Position numbers and translations under genes: made by a program. A DNA stretch of 44,065 nt, from NCBI GenBank assembly GCA_038329555.1, contig JBBQNC010000002.1, forward strand, positions 1-44,065, given 5' to 3'. This DNA comes from Thermoanaerobaculia bacterium (lineage in GTDB: Bacteria > Acidobacteriota > Thermoanaerobaculia > UBA5066 > Gp7-AA6). Of the stretch, positions 1 to 7,361 are shown one piece after another. The notes below the pieces were generated by a model. That model saw nothing but the letters and a program-made list of their open reading frames with translations. It was not told where the DNA came from and did not search any database. Position 1 is the first letter of the stretch; each line of letters opens with the position of its first letter.

Positions 1-296
1 AAGGTCGTACCCGCAACGCAGTGCAGGAAGGCGGGAGCGAGAAAGCCTTGTAGATCGGAAGCTGGAAACGGCAGCCAGCCTACTGGGGCGTTTGGTATCA
101 AAAGAAGGATCAAGAACCAGCCGACTACGGAGACGGGCAGGTCGACCAGAAAAAGGATGGCGCGGGGCATGAGTTGGACCCAGCCGTCACTGTAGTTGCT
201 TGCCGTCGCCAAGGTCAGCGCGCCGGCAAGAGCCAGGTGGGCCAATGCTAATGCGATGCTGAGCTGCCGTCTGCGCGACCTTGCATCGATCAGCAC
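1..296 (-). CDS. Hydrophobic membrane protein, partial (runs off the window); cassette ORF
   Basis: My own reverse-complement translation is stop-free from a GTG at 296-294 (GAGAGGG 7 nt upstream) to position 1: VLIDARSRRRQLSIALALAHLALAGALTLATASNYSDGWVQLMPRAILFLVDLPVSVVGWFLILLLIPNAPVGW... It is absent from the ORF track, presumably because it has no stop in the window. It starts 29 nt after attC-1. Confidence 0.4.
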   Translation of the reverse strand, partial: MLIDARSRRRQLSIALALAHLALAGALTLATASNYSDGWVQLMPRAILFLVDLPVSVVGWFLILLLIPNAPVGWLPFPASDLQGFLAPAFLHCVAGTT

Positions 297-325
297 GATG
301 AAGCCCTCTCGCAATAGCCCTGGTC

Positions 326-395
326 GTCTAACGTTCCAAAGCTCAGCGGCGCCGGCGGCGTAGCCGACGGCGTCCGCTGAAGCGCGATGTTAGGC
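326..395 (-). repeat. attC site 1 (70 bp)
   Basis: Minus-strand read: GCCTAAC-ATCGC-GCTTCAG-CGGACGCCG..CGGCGCCG-CTGAGC-TTTGGAAC-GTTAGAC. This parses as R''/L''/L'/R' boxes, with an extra T in L'' and a bulged A. Confidence 0.75.
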
Positions 396-573
396 GGCGT
401 GTTCATTTGACAGGTACGGCGAAACCCAAGCCGGCAGGCGACCCGGAGCGGCTTCTAACAGCCCCGCGGTGACACCCGCCGATCCTGACCACCCTCGCGA
501 TCATGACGCCAGCTCGATCTTTGGCGGCCGGCGCCTTTAGCCTCCCGACTGAAGGCGACTCGCAGACGCCTAA
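332..573 (-). repeat. ORF-less cassette copy A (242 bp between crossover points)
   Basis: Bounded by the G|TT crossover positions of attC-1 and attC-2. The ~172 bp non-palindromic body is homologous to 2283-2454. No convincing ORF. Confidence 0.6.
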
Positions 574-637
574 CGTTCCAAAGCCCAGCGGTGACGACGG
601 CGCAGCCGGCAACGTCCGCCGGAGCGTGATGTTAGGC
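568..637 (-). repeat. attC site 2 (70 bp)
   Basis: GCCTAAC at 568-574 and GTTAGGC at 631-637. The inner arms are imperfectly complementary. This is the most diverged copy of the family. Confidence 0.7.
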
Positions 638-827
638 GGCGAGCAAGACTGGAGACGGTCCGATGGGAGTGACGCCAGAGCAAGAATGTTGCTAGAGGCG
701 CCGAGCCAGCGCAATCGGGGTGCCCCTGACGACGTGAGACTCACGCGAGTCCGCTGCACGCGCGTGCTAGGCCTCGTTGAGCACCGATAGGACGACTGTG
801 CTTTCAACCTGCCTTTGTCCTTTGGTC

Positions 828-1664
828 TCAAACGGATGCACCGAGGGCCCTGACGACATCGTCCGACGCTGAGACCCAGCCGAACAGCGTTTCAACGGCT
901 AGGAGAGAGGCGTCGTGATTGCTTCGCGGCAGGCCGTATCCGATGGGTTCGCTCATGCAGTCGGCCAGCAGCACGCACAGATAATCCCTGAACATGGCGT
1001 CTCTGACCGTCGACTCCACGCAGATGCTCGTAGTGCAGCCTGTGACAATCAGATGTTTGATGCCCATCTTTCTGAGCCTGGCGTCCAAGTCGGTTTCATA
1101 GAAACCGCTGAATCGTGTCTTATACACGATGACATCGTCGGACAGCGGTTTGAGCTGGGGGACGATATCTGTGTTCCAGGTGTCACGGATTAGAATCCGA
1201 CTCTCTCTACCGTCGGGGGCACGAACGGCTTGGCCGACGCCCATCCGTAGGTGTCGCACCCGGTTCACAGAGTCGGTGGCGCCGAGATCAGAGAGATCGG
1301 GACGATACCCCATCTTGAGATAGATGATTTTGACGTCTGCGGCGCGGGCCGAGGCTAGGACTCTTGCAGTGGGGTCCACGACCTTCTGAATGCCGGAGAT
1401 ATCAATCCCTGCACGATCGAACATGCCGCCCTTCGCACCGAAGTCGTTCTGCATGTCGACCACAATGACCGCAGTCTTTGCCGTATCGATGGAGGCCGGC
1501 CCAGGCTTCGCTTCAATCGTGACGACTCGACCTGTCGATGCATCACGCACCAGCTTGCTCGCGTCTGGACTCGCGGCTCGTGTGCGATCGCTTCGAGGCC
1601 CGAGCGCTGCGAGACCACCGGCGACACCAACGCGCATCAGCTCGCGACGATTGATCATGCTCAT
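828..1664 (-). CDS. Isochorismatase-family (cysteine) hydrolase with twin-arginine signal; cassette ORF
   Basis: ORF 828..1709 trimmed to the ATG at 1664 (GGGAGG 5 nt upstream). N-terminus is MSMINRRELMRVGVAGGLAALG. Motifs VIVVDMQNDF and VTGCTTSICVESTVRDA are present. Confidence 0.85.
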   Translation of the reverse strand: MSMINRRELMRVGVAGGLAALGPRSDRTRAASPDASKLVRDASTGRVVTIEAKPGPASIDTAKTAVIVVDMQNDFGAKGGMFDRAGIDISGIQKVVDPTARVLASARAADVKIIYLKMGYRPDLSDLGATDSVNRVRHLRMGVGQAVRAPDGRESRILIRDTWNTDIVPQLKPLSDDVIVYKTRFSGFYETDLDARLRKMGIKHLIVTGCTTSICVESTVRDAMFRDYLCVLLADCMSEPIGYGLPRSNHDASLLAVETLFGWVSASDDVVRALGASV

Positions 1665-1694
1665 CAGAGCCTCCCATATGAAGTGTTTCGCGAG

Positions 1695-1754
1695 GCCTAA
1701 CGATATCAAGCTCAGCGGCGAGCATATCGAGCCCGCTGCAGCGCGGTGTTAGGC
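1695..1754 (-). repeat. attC site 3 (60 bp)
   Basis: Minus-strand read: GCCTAAC-ACCGC-GCTGCAG-CGGGCTCGATATGCTCGCCG-CTGAGC-TTGATATC-GTTAGGC. Confidence 0.75.
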
Positions 1755-1783
1755 GGCGACCGGGTCAAATGTTGGGCCTCAGT

Positions 1784-2182
1784 CTACGGTTGCCTGAATA
1801 TATCGACTGAGATCTCCACCGCTGGCGTCGTTCCTTTATTCTCAAGCCAGTGCGTGGTGTTCTTGTCTTCGGGCCAGCCCACGCCGGGCCCATACTCCTT
1901 GGCCAAGCCATTCCGATGGTCAGTGATCTTTCCTTGCAGGATGTAGACCGTTCCCGGCCTGTCTTTATGGTTGTGAATCGGGCCGAAGACGCCTCCAGGC
2001 TCGATGGTCACCATACGCATTCGAAGTTGGCGCCCAGCCATGCCCTCGATTTCAGGGCCAAGGTCAACTGCGGCAAGTTGCGTCACCGTAACGCCCTTCG
2101 TCTCAGGTGCCGCCTGTTCGGCGGCCAAGACGACGGAGGCGCTGAAGAGAGAGATCATTGCGAGGCGAAGGAAGGTCTTCAT
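1784..2182 (-). CDS. Secreted cupin-domain protein; cassette ORF
   Basis: ORF 1784..2431 trimmed to the ATG at 2182 (AAGGAG 6 nt upstream); the upstream part of the track ORF runs through attC-4. Signal peptide is MKTFLRLAMISLFSASVVLAAEQ. Cupin-like GPIHNHKDRPGTVYILQG is present. Confidence 0.8.
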   Translation of the reverse strand: MKTFLRLAMISLFSASVVLAAEQAAPETKGVTVTQLAAVDLGPEIEGMAGRQLRMRMVTIEPGGVFGPIHNHKDRPGTVYILQGKITDHRNGLAKEYGPGVGWPEDKNTTHWLENKGTTPAVEISVDIFRQP

Positions 2183-2211
2183 CGCGGTCTCCTTTCGGTT
2201 TTTTTTGGGCC

Positions 2212-2282
2212 GCCTAACGTTTCCAAAGCCCAGCGGCGACGGCGGCGAAGCCGACGCCGTCCGCTGAAGCACGATGTTAGGC
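2212..2282 (-). repeat. attC site 4 (71 bp)
   Basis: Minus-strand read: GCCTAAC-ATCGT-GCTTCAG-CGGACGGCG...-CTGGGC-TTTGGAAAC-GTTAGGC. Confidence 0.75.
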
Positions 2283-2460
2283 GGCGTGTTCATTTGACAG
2301 GCGCGGCGGGAAACCGAGCCGGCAGGAGACCCGAAGCGGCTTCTCTCAGCCGAGCGGTGACATCTGCCGATCCTGGCCACTCTCATGATCATGCCGCGCT
2401 CCCGACCCTGGCGGCCGGCGCATTTCGCCACGCGGCTGAGGGCGGCTCGCGGAGGCCTAA
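2218..2460 (-). repeat. ORF-less cassette copy B (243 bp between crossover points)
   Basis: Homologous to 332-573 over its whole length. By eye roughly four fifths of positions are identical, with a few 1-2 nt indels. Confidence 0.6.
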
Positions 2461-2524
2461 CGTCCTAAAGCTCAGCCGCGGCGACGGCGAAGCCGGCGGC
2501 GTCGGCTGCAGCGCGATGTTAGGC
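2455..2524 (-). repeat. attC site 5 (70 bp)
   Basis: Minus-strand read: GCCTAAC-ATCGC-GCTGCAG-CCGACGCC...GCCGCGG-CTGAGC-TTTAGGAC-GTTAGGC. The TAA inside GCCTAAC is the stop codon of the 2519-2785 ORF. Confidence 0.75.
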
Positions 2525-2785
2525 CGCATTCTTTTTGGCCTTTTCCCGCCGATTCAGGTCAACCGCCCGCGAAACGCCTACGATGGTCATGATGAACCCA
2601 GTCGCCGTCGCTAGGAAAAACAGAACCCCCACTCCTACCAGGTTCGGGTCCGGGTCGCCGCGCCAACCATGGTCACTGGTGTAGACGAGAAATACCGCGC
2701 AGGTCACCCCCACGAGGAGCAGAAAGACGCCGACCACAAAGAGCGGTGAACGCCACGCCCTCCACACTCCGGGATCGAGCGGCAC
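2519..2785 (-). CDS. Small two-TM membrane protein; cassette ORF
   Basis: 88 codons with a GTG start. Two hydrophobic spans are SPLFVVGVFLLLVGVTCAVFLVY and VGVGVLFFLATATGFIMTIVGV. It starts 16 nt after the lone core site and its stop lies inside attC-5. Confidence 0.6.
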   Translation of the reverse strand: MPLDPGVWRAWRSPLFVVGVFLLLVGVTCAVFLVYTSDHGWRGDPDPNLVGVGVLFFLATATGFIMTIVGVSRAVDLNRREKAKKNAA

Positions 2786-2801
2786 GCTAACCTTTCAGCG
2801 G

Positions 2802-2808
2802 GCCTAAC
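2802..2808 (-). other. Lone GTTAGGC core site (attI-like or attC remnant) ending the array
   Basis: GCCTAAC on + equals GTTAGGC on -. I could find no complementary partner arm within 150 nt on the high-coordinate side. Confidence 0.45.
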
Positions 2809-3315
2809 ATGTATTAGACCGCCCAATTCCTGATGCAAACATTGCGAGACTTGCCGCCCTAACCAATTCGATCTCCACGCTCGCTCTCATCAGATCTTCC
2901 GACCGGTCGTTAAGTTGAGACACGCGGCCGCCCCCGCGGTTTCGGCGTTGGGCTGCGAAAAATGCCTTCTAACGTCCGCGAAGGCCCCGGGAAACGGAGG
3001 AACCCTCAGAGCGCGTCCGCCAGCTGCGGATTCCGCGGCCGCTGGTGCGGTTGGAGGGTCGCTCAGTCGTCCTCCTGACGTTGGCGTGGGCCGAATCTCC
3101 AGGATGGTACGGATATCGTACCCTCCTCAAGCGCCAGGATGGTTGAAGAGTGTTCCGGGGAGAACGACGTGACGAAAATCCCCCTGAAACGTCCGTGTTC
3201 TGTCCGCGAGAAGGGTGCTACAAGGAACGGCTGGGTACGCCTCGGCAGAGCCGATCGTCAGGCGGGAGTTGGTCGGTCTGGATCTGAGAGGAACAGTGTG
3301 ACGGTGAGAATAGCC

Positions 3316-3361
<46 letters not shown>

Positions 3362-3367
3362 GTCCCT

Positions 3368-3585
3368 GAAACGCCCGGAGCTACCTCCGGGCGTTGTTAT
3401 TTCCAGATCGATAAGAGGGATTTGAACCTGCGACCTTTGGCTAGAAGTCAGCCGCAGGTTCGGCCGTATCGACAGAGACGCCGAGGCCCTGCGCTGCGCC
3501 CGCTTCACTCCGGCACCGGTGCCCAGCCACGCTGGAGGCGGCGCCGGCTCCGCCGGCGCCTACCCGGCCCGGCGATGGTGAAGCC
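3368..3585 (+). repeat. Direct repeat unit 1 (~218 bp, 235-bp period)
   Basis: Aligns with 3603-3817. Contains a terminator hairpin and, at 3419-3438, the exact reverse complement of tRNA-fragment positions 3326-3345. Confidence 0.7.
3370..3404 (+). terminator. Rho-independent terminator-like hairpin
   Basis: AACGCCCGGAG-CTAC-CTCCGGGCGTT forms a perfect 11-bp stem, followed by GTTATTTCC. Confidence 0.6.
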
Positions 3586-3602
3586 ACAACGATTCTCAGA
3601 GA

Positions 3603-3817
3603 CCAACGCCCGGAGCGACCTCCGGGCGTTGCTATTTCCAGACCGGTCAGAGCGATTTGAACCTGCGACCTTTGCTAGAAAGAAGCCGCAGGTTCGGCCG
3701 TATCGAGCGGGACGCCGGAGCGCCGCCACACCTCGCATAAAGACCACCTCCGGTGCCACGCAGGCTCGAGGCGACGCCGGCTTCGCCGGCGCCTACCCTG
3801 CCCGGCGTGATCACGCC
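3603..3817 (+). repeat. Direct repeat unit 2 (~215 bp)
   Basis: Same layout as unit 1. The inverted tRNA-like 20-mer GATTTGAACCTGCGACCTTT lies at 3654-3673. Confidence 0.7.
3605..3639 (+). terminator. Rho-independent terminator-like hairpin (second copy)
   Basis: AACGCCCGGAG-CGAC-CTCCGGGCGTT forms a perfect 11-bp stem, followed by GCTATTTCC. Confidence 0.6.
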
Positions 3818-3829
3818 CATGCGCCTCTC

Positions 3830-4309
3830 ACGAGGGGCATCTGCTGCGGCCCAGCCGGCGATGAATTGAGGCAGCGCTGCGCCGTGGACTGGGGGCGCAG
3901 CCGGCTCCGCCGGATCGCGAACGCGCCGGCTCTTCCGCTGACGATTCCGATCGCCCGGCCGACGGGGCGCCGAATCCGCGTCGAGATCGAGAACGGCGAC
4001 AACGCGCCCCTTTCGATCTCGGGTGCGGCCGTCTGGACCTCCTCGCCACGCATCGATTTCGTCTTCGCCCCCGGTGACCGGCTGACGCTCCTGTCGGGCA
4101 ACCCGGACGCGCTCGCCCCGCGCTACGACCTGGAGCTCGTCGCCGCGCGGATCCTCTCTTCGCCCGCGCAGGCGGCCCGACTTCGCACGCCCGTGACGGC
4201 GGCGGCCGCGCCGAAGCCGGCCACCACGCGGTTTCTCTGGGTCGCGATCGTCGCGGCGGTCGTTCTGGTGGGAGTCGTTCTGGCGCGCACGCTCCGCGCG
4301 CCTCGCTGA
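3830..4309 (+). pseudogene. 3-prime remnant of a hypothetical protein with C-terminal TM anchor
   Basis: Only the last ~150 codons of ORF 3422..4309 look protein-like: RIRVEIENGDNAPLSISGAAVWTSSPRIDFVFAPGDRLTLLSGNPDALAPRYDLELV...FLWVAIVAAVVLVGVVLA. The upstream part of the ORF is the repeat region. Confidence 0.4.
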
Positions 4310-4325
4310 ACCCTCCCCCGCCGCG

Positions 4326-7361
<3,036 letters not shown>

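What the first reader, a model, noticed from the sequence alone, without database searches (positions are those of the whole stretch)
1..2808. Integron-type cassette array with five attC sites in a ~70% GC chromosome and no integrase nearby
Seen in sequence:
- Palindromes lie at 326-395, 568-637, 1695-1754, 2212-2282 and 2455-2524.
- Read on the minus strand, copies 1, 3, 4 and 5 parse as GCCTAAC - 5 nt - GCT(T/G)CAG - GC-rich stem/loop - CTG(A/G)GC - 8-9 nt - GTTAG(G/A)C. Copy 2 keeps both end motifs and the L-prime half, but its L'' box has diverged (GCTCCGG).
- This corresponds to R''(RYYYAAC) / L'' / L' / R'(GTTRRRY), with one extra unpaired base in L'' relative to L'. Copy 1 has a further bulged A on the same arm.
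- That asymmetry sets the polarity of an attC site. Here it agrees with the coding strand of all four ORFs.
- ORFs are compact. Starts lie 16, 29, 30 and 29 nt after a GTTAGGC core. Each has its own RBS, and the TAA stop of 2519-2785 lies inside the RYYYAAC box.
- Cutting at G|TT gives cassettes 1-331 (partial), 332-573, 574-1700, 1701-2217, 2218-2460 and 2461-2807.
- G+C is clearly below that of the core (30/60 at 1021-1080 versus 43/60 at 5041-5100).

Established knowledge: this is the defining architecture of integron attC (59-be) sites and cassettes. Near-identical attC sites within one array are typical of sedentary chromosomal integrons.

Inference: this is either a CALIN or an integron that has lost intI. 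The three complete cassette-encoded proteins look exported or membrane-bound, and the partial one is strongly hydrophobic. The 8-9 nt spacer next to R' is longer than the 5-6 nt I recall for classical attC sites.
Basis: partly seen in the sequence, partly recalled or inferred. Interest (0 to 1): 0.8.

Follow-up and report, generated by a model that had tools for sequence, protein, structure and literature searches.

The report
Integron cassette array, integrase gene truncated
This is the integrase-proximal end of a chromosomal integron, a row of small mobile gene cassettes separated by hairpin recombination sites, whose own recombinase gene has been cut down to a stub; it is a real but already well-known kind of element, here in what is probably an acidobacterial genome.

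Summary

- **Sites.** Five imperfect palindromes (326-395, 568-637, 1695-1754, 2212-2282, 2455-2524) lie in one orientation. They are the only such sites in the 44 kb window.
- **Test against class 1 integrons.** A covariance model built only from seven class 1 integron attC sites hits exactly these five, on the + strand (23-52 bits).
- **Test against relatives.** A model built only from attC sites next to intact integron integrases in other genomes scores them 54-82 bits.
- **Geometry.** The sites have canonical attC geometry: an extrahelical base at position 16, a 6-bp stem, then T at position 23 in four of the five sites. The spacer beside R' is about 3 nt longer than usual.
- **Relatives.** The same attC family forms co-oriented arrays of up to 50 or more sites, mostly in Thermoanaerobaculia and other Acidobacteriota MAGs. 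They always sit next to an intI transcribed toward the array (the known 'inverted integrase' layout).
- **Junction.** The window keeps the conserved attI junction (2802-3005) and a frameshifted remnant of the last ~50 codons of intI (3006-3156).
- **Mobility.** The cupin cassette recurs in seven other arrays with unrelated neighbours.

Verdict: a new member of a known kind, of modest interest.

The parts
1..331 (-). Partial sixth cassette. The ORF starts at GTG 296 and runs off the left end of the window. Its product is hydrophobic and matches no Pfam family.
   Evidence: Translation; no Pfam hit; bounded on the right by the G|TT of attC1.
326..395 (-). attC1 (70 nt). By convention R''->R' reads on the - strand; the + strand is the folding bottom strand. 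Extrahelical A at position 16 and T at position 23.
   Evidence: R1 76.3 bits; R2 48.1 bits; + strand fold -23.8 kcal/mol, z -4.0.
332..573 (-). ORF-less 242-nt cassette, copy 1 of a conserved non-coding cassette family.
   Evidence: No consistent ORF; 83% identical to 2218-2460; 12 relatives in other arrays; no codon periodicity.
568..637 (-). attC2 (70 nt), with a degraded L box.
   Evidence: R1 53.8 bits; R2 23.2 bits; fold z -1.5.
574..1700 (-). Cassette encoding an isochorismatase-family protein (ORF 828-1664, 278 aa). The N-terminus has a twin-arginine-like motif (RRELMRVG). About 190 nt lie between the stop codon and the attC.
   Evidence: Pfam PF00857, E 5e-40; translation.
1695..1754 (-). 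attC3, of the 60-nt type that dominates the large arrays in relatives. C at position 16 and C instead of T at position 23.
   Evidence: R1 76.2 bits; R2 42.1 bits.
1701..2217 (-). Cassette encoding a cupin_2 protein with an N-terminal signal-peptide-like segment (ORF 1784-2182, 132 aa). The same cassette is present in at least seven other arrays.
   Evidence: Pfam PF07883, E 2e-9. The ORF segment is 97% identical in L091 and 71-78% in six other loci, while the flanks fall to 31-49%.
2212..2282 (-). attC4 (71 nt).
   Evidence: R1 62.2 bits; R2 32.0 bits; fold z -3.9.
2218..2460 (-). ORF-less cassette, copy 2 of the same non-coding family.
2455..2524 (-). attC5 (70 nt), the best-scoring site.
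   Evidence: R1 82.2 bits; R2 51.7 bits; fold -26.6 kcal/mol, z -4.7.
2461..2807 (-). First (attI-proximal) cassette. It encodes an 88-aa protein with two hydrophobic segments (ORF 2519-2785). The TAA stop lies inside R''.
   Evidence: no Pfam family.
2802..3005 (-). attI-like region, that is the conserved spacer between the intI stop and the first cassette. The crossover core is ATTGGGCGGTCTAATACAT|GTTAGGC (2827-2802). Degenerate extra core-like boxes lie at 2857-2863 and at 2947-2953 / 2967-2973.
   Evidence: The 21-nt junction motif is found at the intI-3'/first-cassette junction of L037, L083, L090 and L094, and in L081, which has no intI. It occurs once in the window, with 0.02 expected. 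Alignment A5.
3006..3156 (-). Remnant of intI: roughly the last 50 codons, from ...HSFATHLLEDGYDIRT to the stop TGA at 3008-3006. It carries a frameshift, an internal deletion and an in-frame stop. The rest of the gene is absent from the window.
   Evidence: blastn of 3015-3132 to the 3' ends of intI in L094, L096, L083, L037 and L090, E down to 7e-11; tblastn; alignment A5.
3316..3361 (+). Context only, not part of the integron: the 3' half of a tRNA-Met(CAT) gene, from the anticodon loop to CCA. Its native downstream flank follows and is tandemly duplicated (~234-nt unit, 3370-3840).
   Evidence: ARAGORN and Rfam find no complete tRNA here. Homology to the complete tRNA-Met of L110 starts in the anticodon loop. 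Repeats.

Best explanation
Window 1-3156 is the integrase-proximal end of a sedentary chromosomal integron of the 'inverted integron-integrase' type. It probably lies in an Acidobacteriota (Thermoanaerobaculia-like) genome.

**Layout, read on the minus strand.**
- First comes a stub of intI (3156->3006).
- Next is the attI region (3005->2802), with the crossover point at G|TT (2808|2807).
- Then follow five complete cassettes and one partial cassette, each ending in an attC site. The array continues beyond the left end of the window.

**How such an element works (established knowledge for integrons; not shown for this locus).**
- The bottom strand of an attC site, here the + strand, folds into a hairpin.
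- The R box, the unpaired central spacer, the L box and the two extrahelical bases of that hairpin are recognised by IntI.
- IntI excises a cassette by attC x attC recombination and inserts it at attI by attI x attC recombination.
- The promoterless ORFs all end up in one direction.

**State of this locus.**
- Shown: intI has been destroyed by a deletion or rearrangement that left only its last ~50 codons.
- Inferred: the array can no longer rearrange by itself. It is either a frozen relic or a cassette reservoir served in trans by an IntI encoded elsewhere.
- Inferred: expression of the first cassettes depends on whatever promoter survives right of 2808.
For: **1. Site identity.**
- Model R2, built only from seven class 1 integron attC sites, finds exactly the five sites on the + strand (51.7, 48.1, 42.1, 32.0 and 23.2 bits). 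No other hit in 44 kb exceeds 12.2 bits.
- Model R1, built from 46 attC sites of integrase-linked arrays in other genomes, scores them 54-82 bits. The opposite strand scores 12-19 bits and everything else <=12 bits.
- Conversely, R1 finds the attC sites of aadA16, aadA2, lnu(F), aac(6')-Ib4, aac(6')-Ib-cr and dfrA14 plus a site downstream of aac(6')-IIc. It finds nothing else at E<1 in 65 kb of class 1 integron DNA.

**2. Geometry.** Counting from the 3' end of the + strand:
- R'' occupies positions 1-7, the spacer 8-12 and three base pairs 13-15.
- An extrahelical base sits at position 16, a 6-bp stem at 17-22, and T at position 23 in four of the five sites.
- This is the layout described for attC bottom strands in PMC5027507. 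The aadA2 and lnu(F) sites read show it too.
- The + strand folds 1.0-8.1 kcal/mol better than the - strand.

**3. Genomic behaviour of the family.**
- There are 423 hits in 96 sequences (95 loci plus the window), and none has mixed orientation.
- The 319 cassettes have a median length of 536 nt.
- 251 of 300 have their longest ORF on the cassette strand.

**4. Link to IntI.**
- 20 of 20 loci with an IntI match have it at the same end of the array, with its 3' end facing the array.
- Three of these proteins were tested and score 441-464 bits on TIGR02249 'integron integrase', whose cut-off is 265.

**5. Junction and remnant.** The attI junction and the intI remnant sit in the syntenic position in the window.

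**6. Cassette mobility.** Homology of the cupin cassette stops at the cassette borders in seven other arrays.
Against: - Nothing here shows recombination activity; no IntI was tested on these sites.
- The 5'-arm spacer is 8 nt instead of the usual 5-6. The base at position 16 is A, C or G, whereas G is usual. attC2 and attC3 each lack one canonical feature.
- The alignment used to build R2 was fitted to R1's structure, so R2 is not fully independent of R1. Its sequences are independent.
- IntegronFinder's own attC model could not be run.
- The source organism is not identified directly. The window's own contig was not found in the collections.
- The protein-level match of the intI remnant is weak on its own (E 0.034). 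The case rests on DNA similarity and synteny.
Confidence: 0.93

Rival explanations
1. The array is a true CALIN that never had its own integrase here. The cassettes were either inserted at a secondary site or split off from an integron elsewhere by a rearrangement.
For: No intact intI is present in the 44 kb. CALINs are common, and 95% of them lack a recognisable intI pseudogene nearby (PMC4889954).
Against: The right end of the array carries the conserved attI junction and about 200 nt of the intI-attI spacer. It also carries the last ~50 codons of intI. Order, spacing and orientation match those of intact integrons in L094, L096, L083 and L037.
Confidence: 0.03
2. The palindromes are REP/BIME-like or terminator-like genomic repeats that have nothing to do with integrons.
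For: They are GC-rich imperfect palindromes lying between genes in a high-GC genome.
Against: - They are confined to 1-2808 of the window and are all in one orientation.
- None of 96 sequences carrying the family (95 loci plus the window) has mixed orientation.
- They sit next to integron integrases.
- They are detected by a model made from clinical class 1 attC sites.
- They are not followed by T-runs: the terminator scan does not flag any of them.
Confidence: 0.01
3. This rival concerns function, not identity. The array is still recombinationally active, because an intact IntI encoded elsewhere in the same genome excises and reshuffles these cassettes in trans.
For: - Four of the five attC sites keep all structural features and score as high as sites in intact integrons.
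- Several related MAGs carry arrays on more than one contig, for example CAWGCY...010 with intI and CAWGCY...002.
- Trans mobilisation of CALIN cassettes has been proposed (PMC4889954).
Against: Only 44 kb of the genome is available and no second intI is visible. attC2 has a decayed L box and attC3 has lost T23. The two copies of the ORF-less cassette have diverged to 83%. All three observations fit a lack of recent turnover.
Confidence: 0.35

Closest known systems
Sedentary chromosomal integrons of the 'inverted integron-integrase' group (Treponema denticola and others; PMC3607928, PMC4889954)
   Same: [quoted passage not shown] This holds in 20 of 20 loci. In the class 1 loci, analysed in the same frame of reference, intI1 is divergent. 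The arrays are long and their attC sites are nearly identical.
   Different: - The host lineage differs: mostly Thermoanaerobaculia and other Acidobacteriota MAGs.
- The attC family has its own signature: an 8-nt 5' spacer and C at position 16.
- In this window the integrase is only a stub.
CALIN, clusters of attC sites lacking an integron integrase (IntegronFinder definition, Cury et al. 2016, PMC4889954)
   Same: At least two attC sites on one strand within 4 kb of each other, and no intact intI nearby. IntegronFinder would report the locus as a CALIN.
   Different: Most CALINs (95%) have no recognisable intI pseudogene nearby. This one keeps both attI and an intI remnant, so its origin by integrase loss can be demonstrated.
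Xanthomonas chromosomal integrons with inactivated intI (PMC12444791)
   Same: A chromosomal integron whose integrase has decayed while the cassette array is kept. Integrase loss also recurs within the lineage: the window, L090 and L081 represent separate losses.
   Different: Xanthomonas integrons have the divergent intI layout at a fixed locus (ilvD). Here the layout is inverted, and the locus lies beside tRNA fragments and eno-ftsB.
attC sites of class 1 mobile integrons (aadA2, aadA16, lnu(F), aac(6')-Ib and others)
   Same: The same R/L box architecture. The positions of the two extrahelical bases (16 and 23) and the 6-bp stem between them are the same, as is the 5-nt spacer on the R'' arm. 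Covariance models detect sites of either group from the other.
   Different: The spacer on the R' arm is 8 nt rather than 5-6. Position 16 is mostly C (83% of 220 sites) rather than G. The sites are near-identical within arrays, as is typical of sedentary integrons.
Acidobacteria-type attC sites (taxon-specific covariance model of Ghaly et al. 2021, PMC8352920)
   Same: Chromosomal attC sites of Acidobacteria have already been recognised as a distinguishable structural class.
   Different: That model is not available here, so identity with the present family could not be tested.

Membership tests
Integron attC site | Inverse core sites: RYYYAAC at the 5' end and GTTRRRY at the 3' end of the bottom strand, pairing to form the R box | tested here: met
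   All five sites read G(C/T)CTAAC ... GTTAGGC, and the ends are paired in the folds.
Integron attC site | An L box with extrahelical bases on the L'' arm only: one at position 16 and a T at position 23/24, separated by a 6-bp stem (PMC5027507) | tested here: met
   Position 16 is unpaired in all five sites (A, G, C, A, C). T at position 23 is present in four of five and unpaired in the folds where that stem forms. Exactly 6 bp lie between them. In 220 sites from relatives, T23 is present in 96%. The base at position 16 is mostly C rather than the usual G.
Integron attC site | An unpaired central spacer between the R and L boxes (usually 5-6 nt per arm) | tested here: met
   The spacer is present. 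It is 5 nt on the R'' arm and 8 nt (9 in attC4) on the R' arm. The extra ~3 nt appear as an insertion against the class 1 model and are a family trait, found in 87% of sites. The published length is described as 'usual', not as a requirement.
Integron attC site | The bottom strand folds more stably than the top strand; site length 57-141 nt | tested here: met
   The + strand is 1.0-8.1 kcal/mol more stable, 3.2 on average. The published mean is 2.12. Site lengths are 60-71 nt.
Integron attC site | Detection by an attC covariance model | tested here: met
   IntegronFinder's own model was not available. Two proxies were used. R2, built from seven class 1 attC sites, gives 23-52 bits, E 5e-4 to 6.5e-12. 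R1, built from integrase-linked sites of other genomes, gives 54-82 bits.
Integron attC site | Recombined by an integron integrase | not testable with these tools
   This needs an in vivo or in vitro recombination assay.
Integron cassette array | Several attC sites on one strand, each following a short, usually single, co-oriented and promoterless ORF | tested here: met
   Five sites lie on one strand. Four of the six cassettes hold one minus-strand ORF, which starts 16-30 nt after the core and has an RBS-like motif. Two cassettes have no ORF. No sigma-70-like promoter was found.
Integron cassette array | Cassettes are independent mobile units, found in other arrays with different neighbours | tested here: met
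   The cupin cassette is present in seven other loci, and identity falls to background outside the cassette. The ORF-less cassette family is present in seven loci.
Complete integron | An intact intI (a tyrosine recombinase with the IntI-specific additional domain) next to the array | tested here: not met
   No IntI match is found in the window apart from a frameshifted fragment of ~50 codons at 3006-3156. Relatives do have intact IntI that passes TIGR02249.
Complete integron | An attI site at the integrase-proximal end of the array | tested here: inconclusive
   The junction sequence and spacer are conserved with intact integrons. However, attI sites are integron-specific, and function cannot be shown by sequence.
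CALIN | At least two attC sites clustered (<4 kb apart) with no integron integrase nearby | tested here: met
   Five sites lie within 2.2 kb, and the 41 kb to their right contain no intact intI. The left side is off the window and unknown.
REP/BIME-type repeats | Dispersed singly or in mosaics in both orientations, in the intergenic regions of core genes | tested here: not met
   No copies lie outside 1-2808. Orientation is uniform in 96 of 96 sequences carrying the family (95 loci plus the window).

The most novel reading that the evidence does not exclude
The conserved ~242-nt ORF-less cassette may be a functional non-coding module that spreads within these integrons, for example a promoter or another regulatory element.
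- It occurs twice in the window.
- It occurs in tandem runs in related arrays.
- It is the first cassette after attI in two relatives.

Separately, tRNA-targeting integrative elements may be a recurrent cause of integrase loss in this lineage. The evidence is an intI stub beside a tRNA-Met half here, and an independent stub beside tRNA-Glu plus a partial duplicate in L090. Such events would convert active integrons into fixed gene arrays.
Probability: 0.2. Interest if true: 0.5.

Novelty: new member of a known kind. Interest (0 to 1): 0.3.

Why it matters
- **Annotation.** The six short units at 1-2808 should be treated as horizontally acquired integron cassettes, not core genes. The locus is best described as a decayed integron.
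- **Origin of a CALIN.** It is a clean, sequence-level example of a CALIN arising by integrase loss, with attI and an intI stub still in place. Surveys rarely find such remnants (15 of 279 CALINs in PMC4889954).
- **Host range.** The related loci show that Thermoanaerobaculia and other Acidobacteriota MAGs carry large integrons of the inverted-integrase type. One contig holds 50 or more cassettes.
- **The attC family.** These integrons have a homogeneous attC family that keeps the canonical positions of the extrahelical bases but has a longer R'-side spacer and C at position 16. This is a useful natural variant for studying what IntI actually needs.

None of this changes current understanding of integrons.

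Tried and rejected
- **Source contig.** Exact-protein look-ups for the cupin and for enolase found nothing on record. The window's own contig was not among the 101 genome loci either. What lies left of position 1 therefore stays unknown.
- **Known RNA families.** Rfam at gathering and at E-value thresholds, and ARAGORN, found no attC-like family, tmRNA or complete tRNA in 1-4400.
- **A complete tRNA or tmRNA at 3127-3361.** Rejected. Only the 3' half of a tRNA-Met is present.
- **A second tyrosine recombinase in the window.** tblastn with IntI at E<=10 gave only noise.
- **A small protein in the ORF-less cassettes.** Rejected. The candidate (A/G)TG-ATC frame is not kept between copies, the changes between the two window copies are mostly non-synonymous, and there is no 3-nt periodicity.
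- **A structured RNA in the ORF-less cassettes.** Not supported on either strand; the covariation terms are +0.25 and +0.31.
- **A sigma-70-type promoter in the ORF-less cassettes or in attI.** None was found in the window or in L094.
- **Automatic extraction of class 1 attC sites with a strict RYYYAAC/GTTRRRY regular expression.** This failed, because R' boxes in arrays are hybrids. It was replaced by reading the sequences and by model-based detection.
- **The same intI truncation point in the window and in L090.** Rejected. L090 keeps about 15 more codons, so the two losses are independent.

Full report
**Observation**

- The pattern GCCTAAC-N40-70-GTTAGGC matches four of them, with none expected in shuffles. 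The fifth, 326-395, begins GTCTAAC.
- The conserved 3' motif GCGCGATGTTAGGCGGCG occurs five times within two mismatches, always on the + strand. It occurs nowhere else in the 44 kb at that stringency.
- Direct-repeat analysis places all five in one register.
- The minus-strand ORFs start 16, 29, 30 and 29 nt after the core, each behind a purine-rich motif.
- The TAA stop of ORF 2519-2785 lies inside GCCTAAC.
- G+C is 57-65% up to about 3500 and mostly 62-78% beyond.

**Are they attC sites?**

IntegronFinder could not be run, so I built two stand-ins that do not use the window's sequences.

First, a pattern scan of one genome per species found the same site family in 101 stretches. Most are from Thermoanaerobaculia and other Acidobacteriota MAGs. 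I took 46 sites from arrays that lie next to an integron integrase and built model R1 from them.
- R1 scores the five window sites 54-82 bits on the + strand and 12-19 bits on the - strand.
- Nothing else in the window scores above 12 bits.

Second, I fetched class 1 integrons from clinical plasmids.
- R1 finds the attC sites of aadA16, aadA2, lnu(F), aac(6')-Ib4, aac(6')-Ib-cr and dfrA14, and one downstream of aac(6')-IIc. All are on the bottom strand.
- It finds nothing else at E<1 in 65 kb.
- Model R2, built from those seven class 1 sites alone, hits exactly the five window sites on the + strand. Scores are 51.7, 48.1, 42.1, 32.0 and 23.2 bits, with E from 6.5e-12 to 5e-4. All other hits are at 12 bits or less.
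- One caveat: the alignment behind R2 was fitted to R1's structure, although its sequences are independent.

**Geometry**

Counting from the 3' end of the + strand:
- GTTAGGC occupies positions 1-7 and a 5-nt spacer positions 8-12.
- Three base pairs occupy positions 13-15, and an unpaired base sits at position 16.
- A 6-bp stem occupies positions 17-22, followed by T at position 23. That T is unpaired in the minimum-energy folds of attC1 and attC5. In attC2 and attC4 the fold differs at that point, and attC3 has C there.

This is the layout published for attC bottom strands: extrahelical bases at 16 and 23/24 separated by a 6-bp stem, with the bases on the L'' arm only (PMC5027507). The aadA2 and lnu(F) sites read have it too.

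Other points:
- The + strand folds 1.0-8.1 kcal/mol better than the - strand. The published average advantage of bottom strands is 2.1 kcal/mol.
- Two family traits depart from the usual. The spacer on the R' arm is 8 nt, in 87% of 214 measured sites in relatives, rather than 5-6.
- attC2 has a decayed L box and attC3 has C instead of T at position 23.

**Behaviour of the family elsewhere**
- An HMM scan found 423 sites in 96 sequences (95 loci plus the window), and none has sites in both orientations.
- One contig (CAWGCY010000010.1) carries 50 sites over about 28 kb, ending at an intI.
- The 319 intervals between neighbouring sites have a median length of 536 nt.
- In 251 of 300 intervals the longest ORF lies on the same relative strand as in the window, and it covers a median 81% of the interval.
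- Twenty loci contain a match to IntI. Three full-length proteins were tested and score 441-464 bits on TIGR02249 'integron integrase', whose cut-off is 265.
- In all twenty, intI lies at the same end of the array with its 3' end toward it, so it is co-oriented with the cassettes. In the class 1 loci, analysed in the same frame, intI1 is divergent. This is the known 'inverted integron-integrase' arrangement (PMC4889954; PMC3607928).

**What lies right of the array in the window**
- Window 2802-3132 aligns with the region of L094 that runs from the first cassette junction into the 3' end of intI.
- Window 3015-3132 matches the 3' ends of intI in L094, L096, L083, L037 and L090, with E down to 7e-11.
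- The junction motif GGGCGGNCTAATACAT|GTTAG is found at the intI-3'/first-cassette junction of L037, L083, L090 and L094, and in L081. It occurs once in the window, at 2804-2817 for its 14-nt core, with 0.02 expected.
- The multiple alignment shows that homology to intI begins at about 3156, at the codons for ...HSFATHLLEDGYDIRT. It runs through a frameshift and a deletion to a stop at 3008-3006.
- The ~200-nt spacer between the stop and the crossover is conserved as well.
- tblastn with an intact relative finds only this fragment in the whole window.
- The array therefore once had its own integrase, which has been truncated.
- L090 has a different truncation point, about 15 codons further upstream. 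L081 has the attI junction but no intI. Integrase loss is thus recurrent in this lineage, as reported for Xanthomonas (PMC12444791).

**Cassette content and mobility**
- The cassettes encode an isochorismatase-family protein with a twin-arginine-like N-terminus, a cupin_2 protein with a signal-peptide-like N-terminus, an 88-aa protein with two hydrophobic segments, and a partial hydrophobic protein.
- The ORF segment of the cupin cassette is 97% identical in L091 and 71-78% identical in six further loci.
- The neighbouring cassettes align only at background level, 31-49%. The unit of homology is therefore the cassette.

**Mechanism**
- By analogy with studied integrons (established knowledge, not shown here), the folded + strand of each attC is the substrate for IntI. 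IntI excises cassettes by attC x attC recombination and inserts them at attI.
- With intI reduced to a stub, the array cannot rearrange by itself.
- Whether an IntI elsewhere in the genome still acts on it cannot be decided from 44 kb. I put that at about one in three.

**Comparison and novelty**
- By IntegronFinder's definition the locus is a CALIN. By origin it is a decayed integron.
- Acidobacterial attC sites have already been modelled as a class (PMC8352920). Inverted integrases and intI-less arrays are both described.
- I found no paper on Thermoanaerobaculia integrons in the searchable library.
- This is a new member of a known kind.

**Loose ends**
- Two cassettes (332-573 and 2218-2460) belong to a conserved ORF-less family of about 242 nt, with 12 more copies in seven loci. 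Some copies are in tandem, and two are directly next to attI.
- I found no coding signal, no supported RNA fold on either strand, no sigma-70-like promoter and no Rfam match for this family. Promoter activity of ORF-less cassettes has precedent (10.1101/427781), but nothing here tests it.
- Right of the intI stub come 160 nt of unmatched DNA and then the 3' half of a tRNA-Met gene with its native downstream flank, which is tandemly duplicated. A 5'-truncated conserved gene follows. The event that removed intI may have involved this tRNA locus, but that is not resolved.

Noticed in passing
window 332-573 and 2218-2460; L009 3734-3904; L049 (4 copies); L094 (3 copies); L082, L084, L037 2544-2713, L096 4807-4978: A conserved ORF-less cassette family of about 242 nt. 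The two window copies are 83% identical to each other and about 70% identical to the others. Copies form tandem runs in L049 and L094, and the family is the first cassette after attI in L037 and L096. No coding periodicity, supported RNA fold, sigma-70-like promoter or Rfam match was found.
   Followed up: partly
window 3316-3361 (+), 3370-3840: The 3' half of a tRNA-Met(CAT) gene, from the anticodon loop to CCA, with no 5' half. Its native downstream flank follows, including a terminator-like hairpin at 3370-3395, and is tandemly duplicated (~234-nt unit). A 21-22-nt piece of the T arm recurs inverted at 3418-3439 and 3654-3674. The relative L110 has the complete tRNA-Met directly after eno-ftsB.
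   Followed up: partly
window 3900-4309 (+): The 3' part of a gene conserved after eno-ftsB in the metagenome relatives L108, L109 and L111. In the window its 5' part is replaced by the duplicated tRNA flank, so the gene appears 5'-truncated. It has no Pfam family.
   Followed up: partly
L090 4185-4760: An independent case of integrase loss. A complete tRNA-Glu is followed 95 nt later by a partial duplicate of its 3' end. About 190 nt further on lies an intI remnant that keeps roughly 15 more codons than the window's, followed by the same attI junction and a cassette.
   Followed up: partly
L081 900-1700: An array with the conserved attI junction (975-995) but with no IntI match anywhere in the 8-kb block. 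This is a third intI-less array in the lineage.
   Followed up: no
window 2947-2973 and 2857-2863; relatives in alignment A5, columns ~435-470: A conserved inverted pair of core-like boxes (CGTTAGGC-N12-13-GCCTAACG) lies 20-60 nt after the intI stop. A further GTTAGG(C) box lies about 60 nt before the crossover. Both are degenerate in the window. They may be accessory IntI-binding sites of attI.
   Followed up: no
L039, L089, L101 versus window 1728-2120: The cupin cassette occurs at 88-90% nucleotide identity (blastn local match) in MAGs labelled delta proteobacterium, Syntrophorhabdus and 'uncultured bacterium', as well as in Acidobacteriota. This reflects either cassette exchange between phyla or mis-binning of integron contigs.
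   Followed up: no
L020, L023, L034, L002 (CAWGCY010000010.1, 1-32000): A very large integron in a Thermoanaerobaculia MAG. It has 50 co-oriented 60-nt attC sites over about 28 kb, starting at the contig end and finishing at an intact, co-oriented intI.
   Followed up: partly
window 638-827: The isochorismatase cassette has about 190 nt between its stop codon and attC2. This is unusually long for a cassette 3' region, and no ORF was identified in it.
   Followed up: no
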